A stretch of 64,000 nt of DNA from Nibricoccus sp. (GCA_047602425.1 JASGHG010000001.1:320001-384000), one strand, 5' to 3'; numbered from the stretch's first letter, positions 39,400 to 48,626 are shown. The notes: a model not told the origin generated them from the sequence alone. Numbers and translations are program-made.

Positions 39400-39687
39400 C
39401 TAAGTCGCCGGAAGTGGCGTTGTGGATTGACCGCCACCTTCCATCTCACGATTAAAATCTGCGGCGGCTGTGAAGGCTATTTACGACCATCGATTTCATT
39501 GCCGGACATGAGCGCCACCAGCGGCGAACGCCCGCCGCCACGTTGTGCGTCTCCGCCCGCGTTCGCCGATTCTTATCCCTTAAATCATTTTGCATAAGCC
39601 TGGCGAATATCCCAGCGCGCCTGAGGATTTTCCGGCCTTTTCCGCGTCAAGGCCCATGAGTTTTGTGACGAATAAAGCCATGCACTC

Positions 39688-41610
39688 ATGCATCACCATG
39701 GTTCCATCCGTTTCACTATTTCTCGTCGGCTTCTGCTGCTTACACTCATTCCTGTAGTAGGCTTGCTAAGCTTGGGGGGCTTCGCCTTCCAGTCGCTCTA
39801 CAAGTCTTTCAAAAACTTCGAGGACGACGCGGCCACTCTTGCGCTGTTTCAACAAGAGATCGTCGACCTCAATGCGTTCACCGCGCCGCTTCAGCGCGAA
39901 CGCGATGCCGCACTCGCCGTCTACGCCCATCGCGACGACCCGCAAGTCCTCGCCGCTTACCGCGCCACGTTTGCCGCCACCGATCGGACCATCGCCGATT
40001 TTCTCCGCCAACTTGACCAACTCGCCGACTCTCCGCGCAAAACTTTCTTCGCCGATAAAATCGCCGAAATCCGCATCCGTTTCGCCTCGCTCCTCCCCGA
40101 GGCCCGCGCCAACACCGAGGGCAATAAGGCCACCTCCGGGAAAACCTTCGGCATTTACCTACGCCTCGCCTTCGGCCGACTTCTTCTAACCGAATGCTAT
40201 CGGCCCATGCTCCTCACTTCCGATGGCATCAATGTCTTCGATGGTCTATTCACGCTGTTGAAAATCCAGCAGCAGGAAATCCTTGTCTGCTCGCTCCTCC
40301 TCCACGGCACCGCCAATGGAGGACTCCAGCGCGACGAACTCGTCAACCTTCGCAAACAATTTTTCGCCATCACCGAAAGCGAATACTACCTGCGCAAATA
40401 TCAGCCCGAAACCCGCGCCTTCTGGGACGACTCGGCCCGCAAATCCGCCGACGACGCGCCCTTCTACATCTACCTAACCAATCTCGCCGGCTCGCTCGCC
40501 GAAAACACTCCGCTTCCACCCTTCAAGCCGCAAGCCCGCACACTCCCCGACTACGTCGCCGACCACCTTTCCGTTTTCCCTAAGGTCTACGATTTCGGTT
40601 TCAACGTCGCACTGAACGCTCTCAACGCGAGCGCCAGTCAAAATCTCGGCCGCGCTGAAATCATTGGCGCTGTCATGGGTGCCGTCGTCCTCGCCAGCCT
40701 CGCAGCCGCGTTCCTCATCGTGCGCAGCACAAAGACGAACCTTGTCAACGTCTCCAAAAATATCGACGAAGCCTCCGACGACGTGCAGGCCGCCTCCGCC
40801 CAGCTCAGCGTCGCCGGCGACCGCATCTCGCGCGACGCCACCAGCTACGCCGCCGCCATCGAGCAGATCGGCGCCTCGCTCAACGAACTCTCCGCCACCG
40901 CCGAAACCAACCGCCGGCAAAGTGAAAAAGCCGCCGCGTCCACCACGCAAATCCGCACCTCCGTCGATACCGGCCTCGGCACAATCCAGGAACTGGATAC
41001 AGCCATGAACTCCGCCCGGGTTTCAGGTCAGAAAATCGTCCAGATCATTTCCCGCATCAACGACATTTCTTTTCAGACCAACCTCCTCGCGCTCAATGCC
41101 GCCGTTGAAGCCGCCCGAGCGGGAGCCGCTGGAGCCGGTTTCGCTGTCGTCGCCGACGAAGTCCGCCAACTCGCCAAACGCGCCGCCGAAGCCGCCAAGG
41201 AAACCGAACAGCTCATCAACGAATCCAGCCGCGACACCGCCACCGCCATTGGCAAATCCGACGAGCTCTCCAAAAATTTCAAGAGCCTCTCCCTCGGCAT
41301 TCACGAAGTGAACGAGATCGTTGCCGTCATCAACGCCAACATCGCCCAACAAACCTCCGGAATCGCCGACATCAACAACGCGGTCTCAAAGCAGGGCGAG
41401 ATCGCGCAAAGCATCGCCGCCGCCGCTGAGGAAACCGCCAGCACGGCCTTCTCGATGGAAAACCAGGTCGAAAGTCTGAAGCAAACCGTCGGCCGCCTCG
41501 ATTCCCTCCTTGGCACCGCAAAGGCTACCATCGGCGAACAAGCCACCGAAACCGAACCGCTCTCCCCCGCCACACCCCTGCCAGCCCGCGCAACCGCCAG
41601 CGCCCGCTGA
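39688..41610 (+). CDS. Methyl-accepting chemotaxis protein, possible NIT-type sensor domain
   Basis: Two TM helices; [37 protein letters not shown] motif at the start of the periplasmic domain. Confidence 0.9.
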
Positions 41611-41705: not shown

Positions 41706-43487
41706 TCACGGTTCGATTTCGGAAACCTGTTCGATTGCTGTCAGGAACGCACTGACTTCGGGTGCAATTTCATCTAGTGTCATTTCTGCAGCTAACGCAG
41801 CAGCCGAAATAGAGCAGTTGAATTTTTCCGAGGTCCACCGGGAAAGCGCAGCGATCAATTCCGAACCGCAAACACGGTCTACTGCTCTCCCCTCCGACCA
41901 CTCTCGGTCAATGTACTTCACTGCGGTCGTTGCTGCGAGCCCTGCATTGAATTTTTCGCGATCCCACTTTTTGGCTTCTGCCATGTGAGCCTCAACAGTC
42001 GCTTCCTCAGTGGCCCGACGTAAGTCATCGCACGCTTTTCGAATAGCTTCTTCGACTGCCTCGATAGTAACGGCCTTACCAGATTTCCTTTCGATGAGTC
42101 GTTGGATCGTAGACGGCACAACTAAATAATTTTCGATCTCTTTCCGTCTCCAAATATGCAAGCAAACTCCGGAGTCCTTTGCCTCGTCGTATCGCGCATC
42201 GATTTCTTTTCCCGAATGAAAATCAGAGTCGAGAAGACAGTATATCTTGATCGTTCGATCCGTTACCTTGCGCATCATCATGCCAACACCTTTCGCAGAC
42301 GACCAACCTGTCCATCCGCCAACGGACATCCGTGGCAACCCACCGATTGGGCAATGTGAATGCGGGAAAAGTGTGTCGTGCCAACGACGAAGATACTGCT
42401 CATCCTGCCCTTCAAGCATAAGGAAAAGGCGAGAAGAGGAAAGCCGCGCCAAAGAGATATTGTGAATACTTCCGAGCAGCTCTACAACCTGCTGCAGTCC
42501 CGGAAGTGTATCAGCAAATGGGGACTGCCGCTCTCTACGATCAACGAGGAGCACATCACTAGGTTCAACCTCCGCCATAATTTCGGTGGAATGTGTAGCC
42601 ACTAGTAGTTGTCTCCCAGCTTGCGACTTTAGGTTACGAATTAAACGGCGTTGCACGTCGGGATGCATGTACACGTCCGGTTCGTCGAGAACGATACATT
42701 CCGCCTCCGCATTTCGCGCGAGAAACCAAGCCATCTGTAGCCAGACCTGTAGTCCGTGCCCCATGCAATCAATCTCGTCCGAAAAATCGTTGTCGCGGAC
42801 GATCAGAGAGATTTTTGACTTTGAGGGGTTTAACGTAGAGCGATCTTTCTCAAGAGCGATAATCTGCAGTGATGGCCACCCAAGTTCAGCTATCCTTTTG
42901 AATTCTCCAAAACTTTCATCGTAAAGTAGACTCAGTTGGTTCCTAAAGTGCAGCGAAGATCGATTGGTATCGATGCAGTTTCGAACGTACTGTTCATCTA
43001 ACTCTCGAGTTTCGGATCTTAACGGGCCAATCGAGCCCATAGTGCTAACTAACGGCAGCACTAGCTTCCGTAGCTGGCTATTACGCTGCACCAATTTTTT
43101 CGAGCTGTCCCTAAGCAAAGCATGCATTTCAATTTCTCCACGGTGGTCGCCCAAATAGATGGTCACGGAAGTTCCTGTCGTAAACTTCGCCGTGAGGACT
43201 GCTGGCGCTTCACGCCGCTGGAAATGTAGCGGACCACCATTCAACTGGAACCCTGTAAGTGATGGCGAGATTCCTACTCCAATCAGAGGAATATTGTCCA
43301 ACCACGGCGGAGCATCTCGCAAATTTTGGTTTCGATATTTTCGTGTCACCAAACTAACCAACCTCAATGCTTCGACTATCGTCGATTTACCGGCGTTATT
43401 CCGGCCTACGACAATCGTCCGGTTTCGAAAAGGAACAATATGATCCTCGAACCCTCGAAAATTCTGGAGGCGGAGCGACTCGATCAT
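41706..43487 (-). CDS. OLD-family-like ABC ATPase-TOPRIM nuclease
   Basis: NFRGF, GRNNAGKST, MGHG, VLDEPDVYMHP, ATHS; TOPRIM LEGQDE and LLDSD. Confidence 0.85.
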   Translation of the reverse strand: MIESLRLQNFRGFEDHIVPFRNRTIVVGRNNAGKSTIVEALRLVSLVTRKYRNQNLRDAPPWLDNIPLIGVGISPSLTGFQLNGGPLHFQRREAPAVLTAKFTTGTSVTIYLGDHRGEIEMHALLRDSSKKLVQRNSQLRKLVLPLVSTMGSIGPLRSETRELDEQYVRNCIDTNRSSLHFRNQLSLLYDESFGEFKRIAELGWPSLQIIALEKDRSTLNPSKSKISLIVRDNDFSDEIDCMGHGLQVWLQMAWFLARNAEAECIVLDEPDVYMHPDVQRRLIRNLKSQAGRQLLVATHSTEIMAEVEPSDVLLVDRRERQSPFADTLPGLQQVVELLGSIHNISLARLSSSRLFLMLEGQDEQYLRRWHDTLFPHSHCPIGGLPRMSVGGWTGWSSAKGVGMMMRKVTDRTIKIYCLLDSDFHSGKEIDARYDEAKDSGVCLHIWRRKEIENYLVVPSTIQRLIERKSGKAVTIEAVEEAIRKACDDLRRATEEATVEAHMAEAKKWDREKFNAGLAATTAVKYIDREWSEGRAVDRVCGSELIAALSRWTSEKFNCSISAAALAAEMTLDEIAPEVSAFLTAIEQVSEIEP

Positions 43488-43609: not shown

Positions 43610-44320
43610 ATGACCCCACCCTCCCCTCCGCCTGACTATCCACGCGTCAAGCGGGTGCAGAGTTTTCATGAGCTGGTCACCACGCGGTTCGCGGATGGCG
43701 TCAATGCCCTTTGCTGGGCGCGCACGTTACCGGGCAATTTCGGCGAGGTCCTGCAACATCTGGACGACACCGAGGCCATCGTCACGCTCGACGAGGCACG
43801 GCTTTTAGCTCTTCCCGTGAGTTCGTCCGGACGGGTAGCCATCGATATTCTCCTCGCCGACCTACGGCGGCTCCGCGAGTACGACCTCGCTCCCGTGCTC
43901 AACTGCATCAACGCCTACCCACGCGACGAACAGCCGGGGCCTGTGCGCACGGACGTGTTTTCCTACCACGCCGACAGCGCCACGACCGAGGCCGACACGT
44001 ACCTTTGCACGTACCACGGGCCGTCGAGCGAAGGCCTGCGCAACGAAGAAGCGCGACGCCGCGTGGACATCCCCGAAACGCGCGCCGAACTCCTCAAACT
44101 CCACGGCGGAGAAGACGACGATGACTTCCGCGCCTTCCTGAAAGAAAACTGCTACGATCTGCACTACGCCCCGCTTCCGTCGGCCCAGCCATATTCCTTT
44201 GGCCTCGGCAACCTCTGGCGCATCGCCTGCGAATATCCCGGCAGCCCCGTCCCGCCCTGCATCCACCGCGCTCCCGAAACCATTCACAACCGGCAACGAC
44301 GGCTGCTGCTCATCAGTTAG
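43610..44320 (+). CDS. DUF1826-like protein
   Basis: NALCWARTL.G.F, SYHAD, LCTYHG, PCIHRAP, RLLLIS. Confidence 0.75.
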   Translation: MTPPSPPPDYPRVKRVQSFHELVTTRFADGVNALCWARTLPGNFGEVLQHLDDTEAIVTLDEARLLALPVSSSGRVAIDILLADLRRLREYDLAPVLNCINAYPRDEQPGPVRTDVFSYHADSATTEADTYLCTYHGPSSEGLRNEEARRRVDIPETRAELLKLHGGEDDDDFRAFLKENCYDLHYAPLPSAQPYSFGLGNLWRIACEYPGSPVPPCIHRAPETIHNRQRRLLLIS

Positions 44321-44324
44321 GGCA

Positions 44325-44500
44325 ACTCCGTTGTGCATTTCCGTTGGAATTAGCGTCCCTCAGCGTTCATTAGCGGTCCCTAAAAGATCGTCTTACTCGA
44401 ACCAGCGCGCCGGGACGGCCCGCTCCACCTTACAATCAGTGCCAACAAGCGCTAATCAGTGGTTCCCCCTCTCCGTTTCCTCCGTTACCTCCTGTAAAAT
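44325..44500. repeat. Cluster of short intergenic repeat modules
   Basis: ATTAGCGT..CAGCGTTCATTAGCGG, a REP-like GCGCGCCGGGACGGCCCGCTCCACC, ATCAGTG..ATCAGTG and CTCCGTTTCCTCCGTTACCTCCTGT. Confidence 0.5.
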
Positions 44501-44664
44501 GGTTCGATATGTTCGATTGATCGCTGAGTCCGCAAACGCCCTTTCCCGTCCCCTCCAATGCAAGCCAAAGTTATTCACCGGCGGCCCACAACTTACTCAC
44601 TTAGCGTTGTCGGTGAACAAGTTGTGAGGAAGAAATCCTTTCTTTTTCGAGGCAAATCGCGGAT

Positions 44665-45550
44665 ACTCATTCCCGTTCCTTGATAGAACAGCCGCAAGCG
44701 CGGCGGACCTGAAAAACCCGCCGATGGCACGACTGGGATAATCCCGGGCAACCGGGGAAAAGAGCGTCGAAGCTGGTTCGGCCCTCTCCTCCGCAGGCGA
44801 GTGATCGCCGCGAGAAGGCATATATCACCAGCTCCTCTGGTCGGGGTCGTGCCCGCACCAGTTAACAACACGAATCAGGAGCTGAGCGGCGAGCCGCGAA
44901 CTAAGAAACCGCGTGCGAGTCGAGTCAGGTTCGGAGACCGTTTCGATCTCCGCACTGATACCGTCACCCAGAGGGTTATGGCTGCTACGGTAGCACCAGC
45001 ACGCGATGGCGTTTCCCGGCGGGACCACCCCGCCAAAAGGCCCCGGTCTCTCGCAGGATCGGGGCGCGCAAAGGAAACGAAATCGCGGGGAATGAGCGAA
45101 CCTGGCAAAGTTCGTAAACGTTCCTGATTGGGGCGGCGTGAAAAACCACGTCACCCAACTGCAAAACGAAAAAGCAGCCTGAGAGTTAAGAGGTCAGACC
45201 CGTCCCGCGAGGCCAACGTACAGCCAAAAACTGCAGCCGTCCTCGTGGAATCGGTGCCGACGCGAAAGTAACCATTGCAGGCGTGTCAGCACCCTGTCCG
45301 GCGCGCGGCTCTCGGCAGAGAGCTTCCGAACCGGGCAAAGAGGCCTCACTCGAAAAACAGCGGCCGGCAACGGCCGATGCGGTCCCGCCATGAGACCGAA
45401 ACCTTCGCACTGCCGCGAAGAGTGGCGTCGGGGAACTTGCGGCCCGCGAAAGCGAGGCGCCCAACGCAAGTGCACGGGAAAGAGAGCGTGGCGAGCTCCA
45501 ACCCCCAATTAGGGCCCGCAGGACTTCGGTTCTGCGGGCCTTATTGTTTT
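44665..45550 (+). ncRNA. Large structured non-coding RNA, about 0.9 kb (candidate MISL-type)
   Basis: No credible ORF; many hairpins capped by GNRA/UNCG loops on the + strand, long-range helices, terminal terminator (see findings). Confidence 0.75.
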
Positions 45551-45551
45551 T
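45511..45551 (+). terminator. Rho-independent terminator of the large RNA
   Basis: AGGGCCCGCAGGAC-TTCG-GTTCTGCGGGCCTT then ATTGTTTTT. Confidence 0.85.
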
Positions 45552-45653
45552 AGACATAAACAAGTGGTTCGGCGAGGCCCTCGCTTCCACTCCTTCATCT
45601 TTATCGTTCTCTTTATCTTTCCCCCAATCGCAACTCTCCTAAAAGCCAAAACC

Positions 45654-45737
45654 TTTTTACAGAAGGAAACAGAGACAACAGAGCAATCCATCCGAAATTC
45701 CGACTCCTCCGTTTCCTCGGTTTCCCTTCCGTTCAAA
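45654..45737. repeat. Intergenic ACAGAG/CTCYGT inverted-repeat element, copy 2
   Basis: TTTTTACAGAAGGAAACAGAGACAACAGAG ... CTCCGTTTCCTCGGTTTCCCTTCCGTTCAAA. Confidence 0.7.
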
Positions 45738-45930
45738 CCGGGGCCGCCGCTTCATCCCGCCAAATAGCCTGTTTGCCCGCAAGTGGACCCTTTCTCTACC
45801 CAAAAATCTCCTCGCGACGCGGAACGGGGCTTTTATGTTTAGGTCTCATTGCAAGGGCGTGTAACAATCCCTAGGCGAACTTGGTCTGGGGGAGTTATCG
45901 CCCGGTCAGCCTAACTACACAACGAACACT

Positions 45931-46793: not shown

Positions 46794-48626
46794 ATGAACC
46801 AGAACATCCGTAACATCGCCATCATTGCCCACGTCGACCATGGCAAGACCACGCTCGTCGACCAACTTCTCAAAGAAGGCGGCGTCTTCCGCGCCAACCA
46901 ACAGGTCGCCGAACGCGCCATGGATTCCATGGATCTCGAACGCGAAAAGGGCATCACGATCAAAGCCAAGAACACGTCGGTTCACTGGAAGGACAAAATC
47001 ATCAACATCGTCGACACCCCAGGACACGCGGACTTCGGCGGCGAAGTCGAACGCGCCCTACGCATGGTCGATGGTGTGCTCCTCGTAGTTGACGCTTATG
47101 ACGGTCCTCAGGCCCAGACTCGTTTCGTGCTCCGCAAGGCTCTCGCGCATGGCCTCAAGGTCGTGATCGTCATCAACAAGATTGATCGCGAAAACGCCGA
47201 CCCGAAGAAGATGTACGAAAAGGTCCTCGAACTCCTTCTCGAACTCAACGCCACCGAGGAACAGTTCGACGCCCCGGTCGTTTACGGTTCCGGCCGCGAC
47301 GGCTACATGATGCGCAAGCTCGACGATGAAAAGAAAAACATGGCACCACTCTTCGAGTGCATCCTCGAGCACGTTCCGCCTCCGTTCGCCCGCCCGAACC
47401 AGCCGTTCCACATGCTGGTGTCCAACATCGACTGGAGCGACTACGTCGGCCGTATCGCCATCGGCAAGGTCCTTGGCGGTAAAGCCCGGTTGGGCGATCC
47501 CGTATTCGTTATCCGCCATTCGGACGGCAAACGCGCCCGCGCCAAGATCACCCAGGTTTTCGAATACTCCGGCCTCGGCACCGTCGGTTCCGAAGTCGCT
47601 GACGCCGGCCACATCGTCGGCCTCGCCGGCTTCGAGGATATCGACATCGGCGACACCATTGCCGCCAACGAAGACGCCCACGCGCTGCCCTTCACCCAAA
47701 TCGACCCGCCGACGCTCGAAATGCAGTTCTGCGTCAACGACGGTCCGCTCGTCGGCCAGGAAGGCAAGCTCGTCACCTCACGCCAGCTTCGCGAACGTCT
47801 GATGCGCGAACTGAAGACCAACGTTTCCATTCACATTGAAGACTCCGACAAAGCCGGCGTCTTCAACGTCAAGGCCCGCGGCGCCATGCAGGTTGCCGTG
47901 CTCGTCGAAACGATGCGTCGCGAAGGATTCGAACTCCTCGTCTCCCGCCCGACCGTCATCGAAAAGAAGGGCCCCAATGGCGAACGTCTCGAACCCTACG
48001 AAACCGTCTGGATCGAAATTCCCGACGAATGCGTCGGCGCCATCATGCAGAATCTGGCCAACCGCAAAGGCCAGATGACGAACATGGAAAAGCTCCCGCA
48101 CTCGACCATGATCGAGGCCACGATCACCACCCGCGGTTTGATCGGCATGGAAATCGACGTCGTCAATGCCACCAGCGGCCGCGGCGTGCTCAGCCATCTC
48201 TTTAAAGAATACGGCCCCTACGCTGGCGAAGTCCTCACCCGCATCACCGGCACCCTCATCGCCACCGACGCTGGCGAAACCACGGCTTACGCCTTGGTGA
48301 TGGTTCAGGAACGCGGCAAGCTCTTCGTCAGCCCGGGCGAACAGGTCTACGAAGGCATGATCGTTGGCGAAAATCCGCGTAACGAAGACATCGCCTGCAA
48401 TGCCGTCCGCGAAAAGAAGCTGACCAACTTCCGCTCTCAAGGCGAAGGTGTTGCCGCGAGCCTCACGCCCGCGACGAAGCTCTCGCTCGAACGCGCGATC
48501 GAGTACATTGCCTCCGACGAATTCGTCGAGGTCACTCCGAAAAATCTCCGTCTGCGCAAGCGCATCCTCGACAATGGCGCCCGCCAAAAGGCGATGAAGT
48601 CGCTCAAAGCCCAAGCCGCCGAGTAA
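46794..48626 (+). CDS. typA: Translational GTPase TypA/BipA
   Basis: [49 protein letters not shown]. Confidence 0.97.

What the first reader, a model, noticed from the sequence alone, without database searches (positions are those of the whole stretch)
44665..45550. Unannotated ~0.9 kb highly structured non-coding RNA gene
Seen: no credible ORF, but dense + strand hairpins with canonical stable loops: CCCGG-GCAA-CCGGG (44743-56), GGCGA-GTGA-TCGCC (44796-809), GCTCTC-GGCA-GAGAGC (45308-23), CGGCCG-GCAA-CGGCCG (45361-76), CGC-GAAA-GCG (45445-54) inside ACTTGCG/CGCAAGT. A multibranch domain is closed by CGCGAT/ATCGCG (45002-07/45082-87) and CGTTTCC/GGAAACG (45010-16/45073-79). A perfect 9-bp long-range helix CTCATTCCC (44666-74)/GGGAATGAG (45088-96) encloses about 420 nt and abuts that domain. 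Linkers are A-rich, and the region ends in a C(UUCG)G terminator. Knowledge (recalled, not checked): the MISL motif is a ~0.8 kb RNA of unknown function reported from Verrucomicrobia; GOLLD, ROOL and OLE are other large bacterial ncRNAs. Inference: a stand-alone large RNA, either MISL or a new class, with unknown biochemical function.
Basis: partly seen in the sequence, partly recalled or inferred. Interest (0 to 1): 0.9.

Follow-up and report, generated by a model that had tools for sequence, protein, structure and literature searches.

The report
Known MISL RNA gene, DnaA-box promoter
The flagged 0.9-kb stretch is a real gene for a large, intricately folded non-coding RNA, but it belongs to the already catalogued MISL family of Verrucomicrobia, whose function is still unknown.

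Summary
The region is a full-length MISL RNA gene (Rfam RF03079): 521.7 bits against a cut-off of 274.6, model 1-751 of 751, window 44736-45499 (+). It is single-copy in this genome.

The two junction-closing helices (45002-16/45073-87) are unpaired in the Rfam consensus but covary strongly. The 9-bp long-range helix is at chance level, competes with a covarying Rfam helix, and its 5' arm overlaps the inferred promoter.
- **Transcript limits.** Conservation and promoter geometry place the 5' end near 44675, about 61 nt before the Rfam model. This adds a covarying 5' domain. A conserved terminator ends the RNA near 45551.
- **Expression.** Metatranscriptome contigs cover only this unit.
- **Promoter.** It is preceded by phased DnaA-box-like sites in 24 of 25 loci and in 63 of 68 further loci.
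- **Function.** Still unknown. Gene context gives no consistent clue.

Five earlier notes of this scan reported MISL on other DNA, three of them with DnaA boxes. Verdict: already known, low novelty.

The parts
44571..44631 (.). Array of DnaA-box-like sites upstream of the promoter. TTATTCACC at 44571-79 (about -103) has 1 mismatch to TTATNCACA. Weaker copies lie at about 44594-602, 44612-20 (inverted) and 44623-31 (inverted, about -50).
   Evidence: only one site with at most 1 mismatch in this window; the same phased positions carry better boxes in relatives (24 of 25 loci; 63 of 68 further loci). That DnaA binds here is inferred, not shown.
44639..44667 (+). Inferred sigma-70-type promoter: weak -35 (TTTCTT, 44639-44), 17-nt spacer, -10 GATACT (44662-67), then 7 nt to G44675.
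   Evidence: distant loci show TTGACA-17-GATACT/TAAAGT-6/7-GTTC at the same distance. One search found no consensus promoter here, because the -35 is poor. The start site is inferred from geometry, not mapped.
44675..44689 (+). Near-invariant 5' motif GTTCCTTGATAGAAC. Probably the first bases of the RNA (GTTC/GAAC hairpin), and unique in the genome.
   Evidence: present upstream of the Rfam start in all 25 loci; in 69 of 80 further loci; one copy in the 5.16-Mb genome.
44689..44735 (+). 5' stem-loop domain outside the Rfam model: helix 44689-94/44730-35, GC/GC 44698-99/44727-28, hairpin 44701-06/44718-23.
   Evidence: RNAalifold on 18 sequences. Compensatory changes at 3 of 6 pairs of the outer helix and at all 6 pairs of the hairpin.
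44736..45499 (+). MISL RNA core as matched by Rfam RF03079 (model 1-751).
   Evidence: 521.7 bits, E 2e-157, gathering score 274.6, not truncated.
45002..45087 (+). Two-hairpin junction domain closed by helices 45002-07/45082-87 and 45010-16/45073-79.
   Evidence: 89.3% paired, 10 of 13 pairs compensatory, 0 of 500 shuffles. RNAalifold predicts them independently; present in the single-sequence MFE; a model of the domain matched inside MISL in 3 of 7 distant loci.
45088..45125 (+).
   Evidence: 93.9% paired against 87.8% in shuffles, 0 of 500; sliding the partner gives 35-53%.
45500..45551 (+). Conserved C-rich linker (AACCCCCAA) and intrinsic terminator (stem 45510-43, CUUCGG tip, T-run to 45551).
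   Evidence: hairpin plus T-run present with different stem sequences in 24 of 24 loci that have 3' flank.

Best explanation
**Shown.** Window 44736-45499 (+) is a full-length member of the MISL RNA family (Rfam RF03079). It is a single-copy, non-coding, strongly structured gene. Its homologues in Opitutales-type Verrucomicrobia keep the helices through compensatory changes.

**Shown by comparison.**
- The conserved unit is longer than the Rfam model. It starts with a near-invariant GTTCCTTGATAGAAC motif at 44675 plus a covarying stem-loop domain, and ends in a conserved intrinsic terminator at 45510-45551. That gives an RNA of about 875 nt.
- The junction helices 45002-16/45073-87 are real.

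**Inferred.**
- Transcription starts at about 44675 from a sigma-70-type promoter (-10 GATACT at 44662-67).
- The -35 is weak in this genus. The promoter is flanked at about -50 to -110 by phased DnaA-box-like sites. I therefore propose that DnaA, or another protein recognising TTATTCAC, controls MISL output. Activation is the more likely direction, because the sites lie upstream of a poor -35 and do not overlap the -10 or +1.
- The RNA accumulates to high levels and acts in trans as a folded particle. It would be a protein-binding scaffold or a self-organised tertiary structure, in the manner of OLE, ROOL, GOLLD or raiA RNAs. It would not act as an antisense sRNA or a cis-regulator.

Its biochemical function is not known.
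For: **Identity**
- Full-length match at 521.7 bits against a cut-off of 274.6.
- One copy in the genome.
- Homologues in 19 of 41 relatives including this genome. Not counting this genome, they are in 12 of 24 genomes of the same family and in 6 of 16 other families of the order.
- 9 of 151 genomes of a phylum-wide sample have it.
- At least 119 exact matches to its 5' motif, nearly all in records labelled Opitutales, Opitutaceae or Verrucomicrobia.

**Structure**
- Folding z-score -8.4 on the + strand against -2.3 on the - strand.
- Covariation.

**Non-coding**
- No conserved open frame.

**Limits of the unit**
- The GTTC motif is in 25 of 25 loci, with near-consensus TTGACA-17-GATACT-7 in front of it in distant loci.
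- A terminator is present in all 24 loci with 3' flank.

**Expression**
- 12 runs on record as RNA hold about half of the sampled words.
- In sediment RNA run X1, 681 contigs lie on 44678-45541 and none on either flank. Three contigs identical to the window over 108-180 nt have word depth 432-551.
- In sludge RNA run X2, one 777-nt contig spans 44731-45486.

**Independent gene**
- Neighbours differ between lineages.
- In MISL-negative relatives G007 and G024, hrpB and typA are adjacent, with no MISL, no GTTC motif and no box cluster.

**Boxes**
- 54 boxes in 24 of 25 loci, against 2.8 +/- 1.7 in dinucleotide shuffles (maximum 8 in 200). The segment after the terminator has 0 in 23 loci.
- 165 boxes in 63 of 68 further loci, peaking at -110, -100/-80 and -60/-50.
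- The same genome has two perfect TTATTCACA plus two near copies within 300 bp upstream of dnaA.
Against: - The window itself has only one box with at most 1 mismatch. The case for boxes rests on relatives, which are kin and not independent.
- That the motif is bound by DnaA rests on a recalled consensus and on one cluster at dnaA.
- The second MISL copy of G019 has no boxes.
- No promoter passed the consensus scan in the window.
- The 5' end is not mapped. Contigs cannot show ends, strand or level. RNA contigs of X1 and X2 mostly begin at 44731-33, probably an assembly branch point at the invariant block. One RNA-library contig (X6) crosses the 5' boundary back to 44555 and another crosses the 3' boundary to 45572.
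- Nothing here shows a protein partner, catalysis or oligomerisation.
- MISL was not found in about half of the family genomes searched, including complete ones (G007, G008). Whatever it does is therefore dispensable or replaceable.
Confidence: 0.93

Rival explanations
1. The RNA is a long cis-acting leader or regulator of the downstream translational GTPase gene typA/bipA (46794-48626 +).
For: typA lies downstream on the same strand in 12 of 25 loci, at 205-4634 nt. In two loci it starts only 205-240 nt after MISL.
Against: A strong intrinsic terminator follows MISL in all 24 loci with 3' flank. In the window, 1295 nt with other ORFs lie between. 13 of 25 loci show no typA, and 10 of those have at least 6 kb of downstream DNA and one has 5 kb. 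Lineages outside the family have unrelated neighbours. MISL-negative relatives keep typA next to hrpB without it.
Confidence: 0.03
2. The functional element is the DNA, not the RNA. On this reading it is a DnaA-box cluster that titrates or remodels DnaA, as datA and DARS do in E. coli (recalled), and transcription is incidental.
For: Phased box arrays are conserved across loci.
Against: The roughly 875-nt transcribed part is far better conserved than the box region and keeps its helices by compensatory changes. That is selection on RNA. Contigs in RNA libraries reach high depth. The window has only one good box.
Confidence: 0.03
3. It is a degenerate or unusual member of another known large RNA class: RNase P, tmRNA, 6S, a group I or II intron, OLE, GOLLD, ROOL or HEARO.
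For: Size and structural complexity are similar.
Against: At E up to 1, no other family matches on the + strand. There are only two sub-threshold chance matches on the - strand, at 17.2 and 15.5 bits. The genome has its own RNase P RNA (216.6 bits) and 6S RNA (58.5 bits) elsewhere. No tmRNA lies in the region.
Confidence: 0.01
4. It is a protein-coding gene, a pseudogene, or a dual-function RNA encoding a small protein.
For: GC-rich sequence gives ORFs of 92-134 aa on both strands. An invariant ATG lies at 45390.
Against: Stop-free stretches differ in frame and position among 18 homologues. Indels that are not multiples of three occur throughout, including in the 45390 ORF. Variation follows base-pairing rather than codons.
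Confidence: 0.01

Closest known systems
MISL RNA (Rfam RF03079)
   Same: Full-length match far above the family threshold. Same helices, same invariant linker blocks, same taxonomic range, and followed by a terminator. It is a member.
   Different: Nothing at the level of the family. Three details go beyond the Rfam model as printed by cmscan. First, there are about 61 conserved nt at the 5' end, with a covarying stem-loop domain. Second, there is a junction-closing helix pair left unpaired in the consensus. Third, the promoter carries a DnaA-box-like array. My attribution of the family to the 2017 survey of 224 candidate RNAs is recalled. That paper's main text has 0 occurrences of 'MISL' in the listing, and its supplement could not be read.
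Other large structured bacterial ncRNAs of unknown or recently glimpsed function: OLE, ROOL, GOLLD, raiA
   Same: Several hundred nt long, with many conserved helices and invariant junction nucleotides. Each is a stand-alone gene, abundant in RNA libraries, and patchy in distribution. The abstract starts listed state that GOLLD, ROOL and OLE structures were solved by cryo-EM and that raiA RNA is as abundant as rRNA and tRNA in one species.
   Different: No sequence or structure match to any of them. They occur in a different phylum. No oligomer, protein partner or phenotype is known for MISL. 'Works like them' is an analogy, not a result.
DnaA-controlled promoters and DnaA-box clusters (dnaA autoregulation; datA and DARS of E. 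coli; recalled knowledge)
   Same: Several 9-mers close to TTATNCACA, phased at 20-30 bp just upstream of a promoter. The same motif is clustered upstream of dnaA in this genome.
   Different: Binding by DnaA is untested. I know of no DnaA-controlled large ncRNA, and the paper searches returned nothing on MISL function or regulation. The window's own boxes are degenerate.

Membership tests
MISL RNA (RF03079) | Match to the family covariance model above its gathering score, over the full model | tested here: met
   521.7 bits against 274.6; model 1-751 of 751; E 2e-157; not truncated.
MISL RNA (RF03079) | Consensus helices formed by the sequence, including the long-range helix that encloses the 3' hairpins | tested here: met
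   The cmscan alignment shows all consensus helices, with scattered non-canonical pairs marked v. Helices at 45088-45125 covary in 18 homologues.
MISL RNA (RF03079) | Occurrence in Verrucomicrobia (recalled description of the family) | tested here: met
   Homologues in 19 of 41 relatives and 9 of 151 genomes of the phylum sample. The 14 named control genomes have none. Records with the 5' motif are labelled Opitutales, Opitutaceae, Lacunisphaera, Opitutus and the like.
MISL RNA (RF03079) | Non-coding stand-alone gene followed by an intrinsic terminator (recalled description) | tested here: met
   No conserved frame. Terminator at 45510-45551, conserved in 24 of 24 loci with 3' flank. Neighbours vary between lineages.
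RNase P, tmRNA, 6S, group I/II introns, OLE, GOLLD, ROOL, HEARO | Match to the respective Rfam model | tested here: not met
   No match at E up to 1 in 44400-45800 other than MISL and two chance-level hits on the - strand. RNase P and 6S genes lie elsewhere in the genome. ARAGORN finds nothing.
DnaA-regulated promoter / DnaA-box cluster | Two or more close matches to the DnaA-box consensus next to the promoter | tested here: inconclusive
   The window has 1 site with at most 1 mismatch plus degenerate copies. In relatives, 24 of 25 loci have at least one and 18 of 25 have at least two; in further loci, 63 of 68 have at least one. These counts far exceed the shuffles.
DnaA-regulated promoter / DnaA-box cluster | The same motif is used at dnaA or oriC of the same organism | tested here: inconclusive
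   Two perfect and two near copies lie within 300 bp upstream of dnaA, and this region is among the 10 densest 300-bp windows of the genome. oriC itself was not located, and the GC-skew minimum lies at 2.25 Mb.
DnaA-regulated promoter / DnaA-box cluster | DnaA binds the sites and changes transcription | not testable with these tools
   Needs EMSA or ChIP and reporter assays.

The most novel reading that the evidence does not exclude
MISL is an abundant, DnaA-controlled structured RNA, so its level reports or feeds back on the replication-initiation state of the cell. On this reading the roughly 875-nt fold is a ribonucleoprotein scaffold, or a self-assembling or catalytic RNA, working in chromosome-cycle or growth control of Opitutales. 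It would be the first large bacterial ncRNA tied to the replication initiator. Two structural additions, the 5' domain and the junction helices, would belong to its functional core.
Probability: 0.15. Interest if true: 0.75.

Novelty: already known. Interest (0 to 1): 0.25.

Why it matters
MISL is one of the few bacterial non-coding RNAs above 700 nt with an elaborate conserved fold and no known function. RNAs of that kind have repeatedly turned out to be ribozymes, ribonucleoprotein cores or, recently, RNA-only assemblies.

This locus adds no new class. It is a clean reference copy in a complete, single-contig genome. It is single-copy, with probable transcript limits of about 44675-45551, a refined structure, evidence of high RNA abundance in environmental libraries, and a promoter with a testable regulatory lead (DnaA-box-like sites). 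That makes a knock-out, an end-mapping experiment and a DnaA-binding test straightforward in a cultured relative.

Tried and rejected
Rejected.
2. **My first test of the competing Rfam helix** used a wrong register (42.6% paired; sliding by -1 gave 79.5%). It was redone correctly.
3. **Gene context as a clue to function.**
   - typA is downstream in 12 of 25 loci. hrpB is adjacent upstream in 6 loci and about 5-6 kb away in 4 more.
   - An hrpB-like gene is found in 24 of 24 genomes of the family, including MISL-negative ones, and in 34 of 41 overall.
   - The window has no hrpB within 64 kb.
   - Distant loci have unrelated neighbours.
   - I read this as inherited synteny, not a functional link.
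4. **Complementarity of MISL to the genome's own 16S and 23S rRNA.** The longest perfect stretch is 10 nt, against 10-13 nt for 20 shuffled MISL sequences. No signal.
5. **A distal 9-bp pairing, 45018-26 with 45381-89.** The local hairpin partner covaries in the row named L002 of alignment A1 while the distal element is invariant. I judged this by eye only and rejected it.
6. **The MISL locus as oriC.** GC-skew extremes lie at about 24 kb and 2.25 Mb, and MISL is at 364.7 kb.
7. **Literature.** 'MISL RNA' occurs in 3 held copies of a single work, a chemical-mapping data set that uses a MISL window as an example; I read two figure-legend passages. 'MISL' with 'Verrucomicrobia' gave 0 papers. 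'MISL motif', 'MISL RNA motif' and 'RF03079' gave 0 papers. No paper listed holds the word MISL.
8. **Supplement of the 2017 survey.** Unreadable here, so the original description of MISL may contain details I could not see, such as a 5' extension.
9. **Small covariance model of the junction domain.** It matched inside MISL in only 3 of 7 distant loci. There was one weak hit outside MISL (E 0.42), and three loci gave nothing.
10. **Parts of the laid stretch without contig cover in runs X1 and X2** are not evidence of absence.

Full report
**What is there**

Rfam's covariance-model scan of the whole 64-kb window gives a single match above threshold. It is MISL RNA (RF03079) at 44736-45499 on the + strand: 521.7 bits against a gathering score of 274.6, E 2e-157, covering model positions 1-751 of 751 without truncation.

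A permissive scan of 44400-45800 adds only two chance-level matches on the opposite strand, at 17.2 and 15.5 bits. No tRNA or tmRNA lies nearby. The gene is single-copy in its 5.16-Mb single-contig genome. That genome has its own RNase P RNA and 6S RNA elsewhere.

- All eleven quoted strings are at the stated coordinates.
- The hairpins at 44743-56, 44796-809, 45308-23 and 45361-76, and the 45445-54 hairpin inside ACTTGCG/CGCAAGT, are helices of the Rfam consensus.
- The + strand of 44675-45550 folds at -400.9 kcal/mol against -340.7 +/- 7.2 for 20 dinucleotide shuffles (z -8.4). The - strand gives z -2.3.
- A 15-pair terminator with a CUUCGG tip and a T-run sits at 45510-45551.
- ORFs of 92-134 aa exist on both strands, as expected at 61% G+C. 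Stop-free stretches differ in frame and place among 18 homologues, and indels are not in threes.

**Homologues**

- The family model finds MISL in 19 of 41 related genomes, this one included, and 17 of those score above the cut-off. Not counting this genome, that is 12 of 24 genomes of the same family and 6 of 16 other families of the order. None of the 14 named control genomes has it.
- In an even sample of the phylum (151 genomes at least 90% complete), 9 have it. Leaving this genome out, six of 8 sampled from the same family have it, one is from another family of the order, and one is from outside the class.
Nearly all are labelled Opitutales, Opitutaceae, Lacunisphaera, Opitutus, Nibricoccus, Horticoccus or simply Verrucomicrobia.
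- Complete genomes of the family without a match exist (G007, G008), so the RNA is not universal even among close kin.

**Structure beyond the Rfam model**

I aligned 18 of the 25 loci then in hand, leaving out the seven most distant (L014-L019, L025), with 150 nt of 5' flank and 100 nt of 3' flank.

   - They are 89.3% paired against 75.8% in column shuffles. Ten of 13 pairs show compensatory changes, 0 of 500 shuffles reach the observed values, and sliding the partner gives 32-50%.
   - RNAalifold predicts them on its own, and they appear in the single-sequence MFE.
   - A small covariance model of this domain matched inside MISL in 3 of the 7 distant loci (50.3, 25.0 and 24.5 bits). The inner helix is rebuilt from different letters in L025. 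It found nothing usable in the other four.
   - It is 73.1% paired against 72.4% in shuffles, with 193 of 500 as high.
   - Perfect long-range 9-mers are as frequent in shuffles (3.0 +/- 2.25) as in the real sequence (3).
   - Its 3' arm belongs to the Rfam hairpin 45088-92/45121-25 plus 45096-101/45110-15. That hairpin is 93.9% paired, with 0 of 500 shuffles as high on three of five measures, and 35-53% when slid.
3. *Conservation upstream of the Rfam start.* A motif GTTCYTTGAnAGAAC lies 39-158 nt upstream of the Rfam start (mostly 59-61 nt) in all 25 loci. It is also present in 69 of 80 further loci. It is unique in this genome.
   - Between the motif and the Rfam start, RNAalifold finds a stem-loop domain: 44689-94/44730-35, 44698-99/44727-28 and 44701-06/44718-23. 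Compensatory changes occur in the outer helix and the hairpin.

**Promoter and ends**

- In the distant loci the GTTC motif is preceded at a fixed distance by near-consensus hexamers, for example TTGACA, 17 nt, GATACT, 7 nt, GTTC.
- The window has GATACT at 44662-67, 7 nt before G44675, with a poor -35 (TTTCTT). This explains why the consensus scan found no promoter.
- I therefore place the start at about 44675. This is inference from geometry.
- At the 3' end, a C-rich linker and a hairpin plus T-run follow in every one of the 24 loci that has flank. The stem sequences differ but still pair.

**Expression**

- Twelve runs on record as RNA, from sediment, sludge, leaf litter, freshwater, soil and wetland, hold about half of the sampled 31-mers of 44600-45600.
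- Four runs were laid on 44300-45900.
  - *X1 (sediment RNA):* 681 contigs at least 90% alike, all within 44678-45541. Summed word depth reaches 5.6e5, and there are no contigs on either flank. Three contigs without a difference (108-180 nt, depth 432-551) show that a near-identical organism is present.
  - *X2 (sludge RNA):* one 777-nt contig covers 44731-45486 and then runs into letters that I recognise, from memory, as an Illumina adapter.
  - *X6 (leaf-litter RNA):* low-depth contigs cross both borders (44555-45204 and 45175-45572). This could be DNA carry-over or read-through.
  - *X15 (kind unknown):* it covers the flanks as well.
- Contigs cannot give ends, strand or level. The common start near 44731 is probably an assembly branch point at the invariant block, since the bin 44678-44731 still has depth in X1 and X2.
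- The fair reading is that the unit is present at high depth in RNA libraries of several studies while its flanks are not.

**DnaA-box-like array**

- Upstream of the promoter, the alignment shows a conserved block that contains TTATTCAC(C/A) and its inverted copy.
- I counted 9-mers with at most one mismatch to TTATNCACA (consensus recalled) in -200 to -35.
  - The 25 loci hold 54 sites, and 24 loci have at least one.
  - Dinucleotide shuffles give 2.8 +/- 1.7 (maximum 8 in 200).
  - An equally long segment after the terminator gives 0 in 23 loci.
  - The one locus without sites is the second, more divergent MISL copy of G019.
- In 68 further loci with enough flank, 63 have at least one site (165 in all). 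Positions pile up at about -110 (inverted), -100 and -80 (direct), and -60 and -50 (inverted).
- In this genome the motif occurs at 0.30 per kb. The 300 bp upstream of dnaA carry two perfect and two near copies, one of the ten densest windows.
- The window's own MISL promoter has only one site at this stringency (44571-79), plus degenerate copies.
- MISL-negative relatives G007 and G024 have hrpB and typA side by side with no MISL, no GTTC motif and no box cluster. No Rfam match at E up to 0.01 was found in any of seven 8-kb syntenic stretches. The boxes therefore travel with the RNA gene.
- Binding by DnaA is an inference. Kinship among the loci inflates the counts.

**Gene context**

- In the window the neighbours are:
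  - an OLD/ABC-type ATPase at 41706-43487 (-), whose best defence-library match is the fused AriAB of PARIS;
  - a 236-aa ORF with a weak DUF1826 match;
  - unassigned ORFs;
  - typA/bipA at 46794-48626 (+).
- typA follows on the same strand in 12 of 25 loci. A divergent hrpB helicase gene precedes in 6 loci and lies 5-6 kb away in 4 more.
- Both associations are confined to one family. hrpB is present in all 24 family genomes whether or not they have MISL, and other lineages have unrelated neighbours.
- I read this as inherited synteny. No complementarity to the genome's own rRNAs exceeds chance.

**How it most likely works**

- *Shown:* it is a conserved, structured, non-coding, independently terminated gene of the MISL family, and its sequence is present at high depth in RNA libraries.
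- *Inferred:*
  - an 875-nt primary transcript from about 44675;
  - control by a TTATTCAC-binding protein, most simply DnaA, and probably as an activator given the weak -35 and the upstream position of the sites (I put this at about 0.35);
  - action in trans as a folded particle or protein scaffold rather than by antisense pairing or in cis (about 0.4-0.5).
- The function remains unknown.

**Known or new**

The family is in Rfam, so the class is not new. In the held library, the only work that names MISL uses a window of it as an example for chemical mapping; I read two figure-legend passages. Other searches returned nothing on MISL. The supplement of the 2017 survey to which I attribute the family from memory could not be read.

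Five earlier notes of this scan report MISL on other genomes, three with DnaA-type boxes. I saw them after my own box counts, and they are not independent evidence.

- rejection of its long-range helix;
- the 5' domain;
- the transcript limits;
- the presence/absence comparison at the hrpB-typA site.

Noticed in passing
window 41706-43487 (-): A 593-aa AAA_15/AAA_21 ATPase. Its best PADLOC match is the fused AriAB protein of the PARIS system (104 bits), with OLD, GajA and PtuA models behind it. It is a candidate anti-phage defence gene and sits where relatives carry hrpB. The next ORF (43610-44320 +) has only a weak DUF1826 match.
   Followed up: partly
window 44492-44506 and 45604-45621: Short dispersed repeats flank the MISL gene. 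The 18-mer at 45604-45621 contains 14-mers with up to 14 copies in the genome, and the 15-mer at 44492-44506 up to 6. Similar C/T-rich strings occur at about 44470-44500 and 45700-45740.
   Followed up: partly
own genome G000:C1 (dnaA at 39680-40159): Cumulative GC skew has its maximum at about 24 kb, next to dnaA, and its minimum at about 2.25 Mb. By the usual convention the minimum marks the origin. So either dnaA lies near the terminus or the skew polarity is unusual. A weak box cluster lies at 2,264,324.
   Followed up: partly
L020 / L039 (G019:C87:5081-5833): One relative has two MISL genes. The second scores lower (401.8 bits) and has no DnaA-box-like site in -200 to -35, unlike the other 24 loci examined.
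   Followed up: partly
L077 and L117: The invariant MISL 5' block also occurs on an 858-bp scaffold labelled Stutzerimonas marianensis and on a contig labelled Candidatus Sulfotelmatobacter. These are probably contamination or mis-binning rather than true occurrences outside Verrucomicrobia.
   Followed up: no
L050 (G007) and L056 (G024): In two MISL-negative relatives, hrpB and typA are direct neighbours: typA starts 1117 and 415 nt from the hrpB-side edge of the fetched stretch. The MISL gene with its promoter behaves as a discrete presence/absence module at this site.
   Followed up: yes
window 45500-45509: A C-rich linker (AACCCCCAA; CCC(A/C)C in distant loci) between the Rfam 3' end and the terminator is conserved in all loci. 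A pairing with UUGGGG at 45129-34 looked possible by eye, but changes in relatives were not consistently compensatory. It was not tested formally.
   Followed up: no
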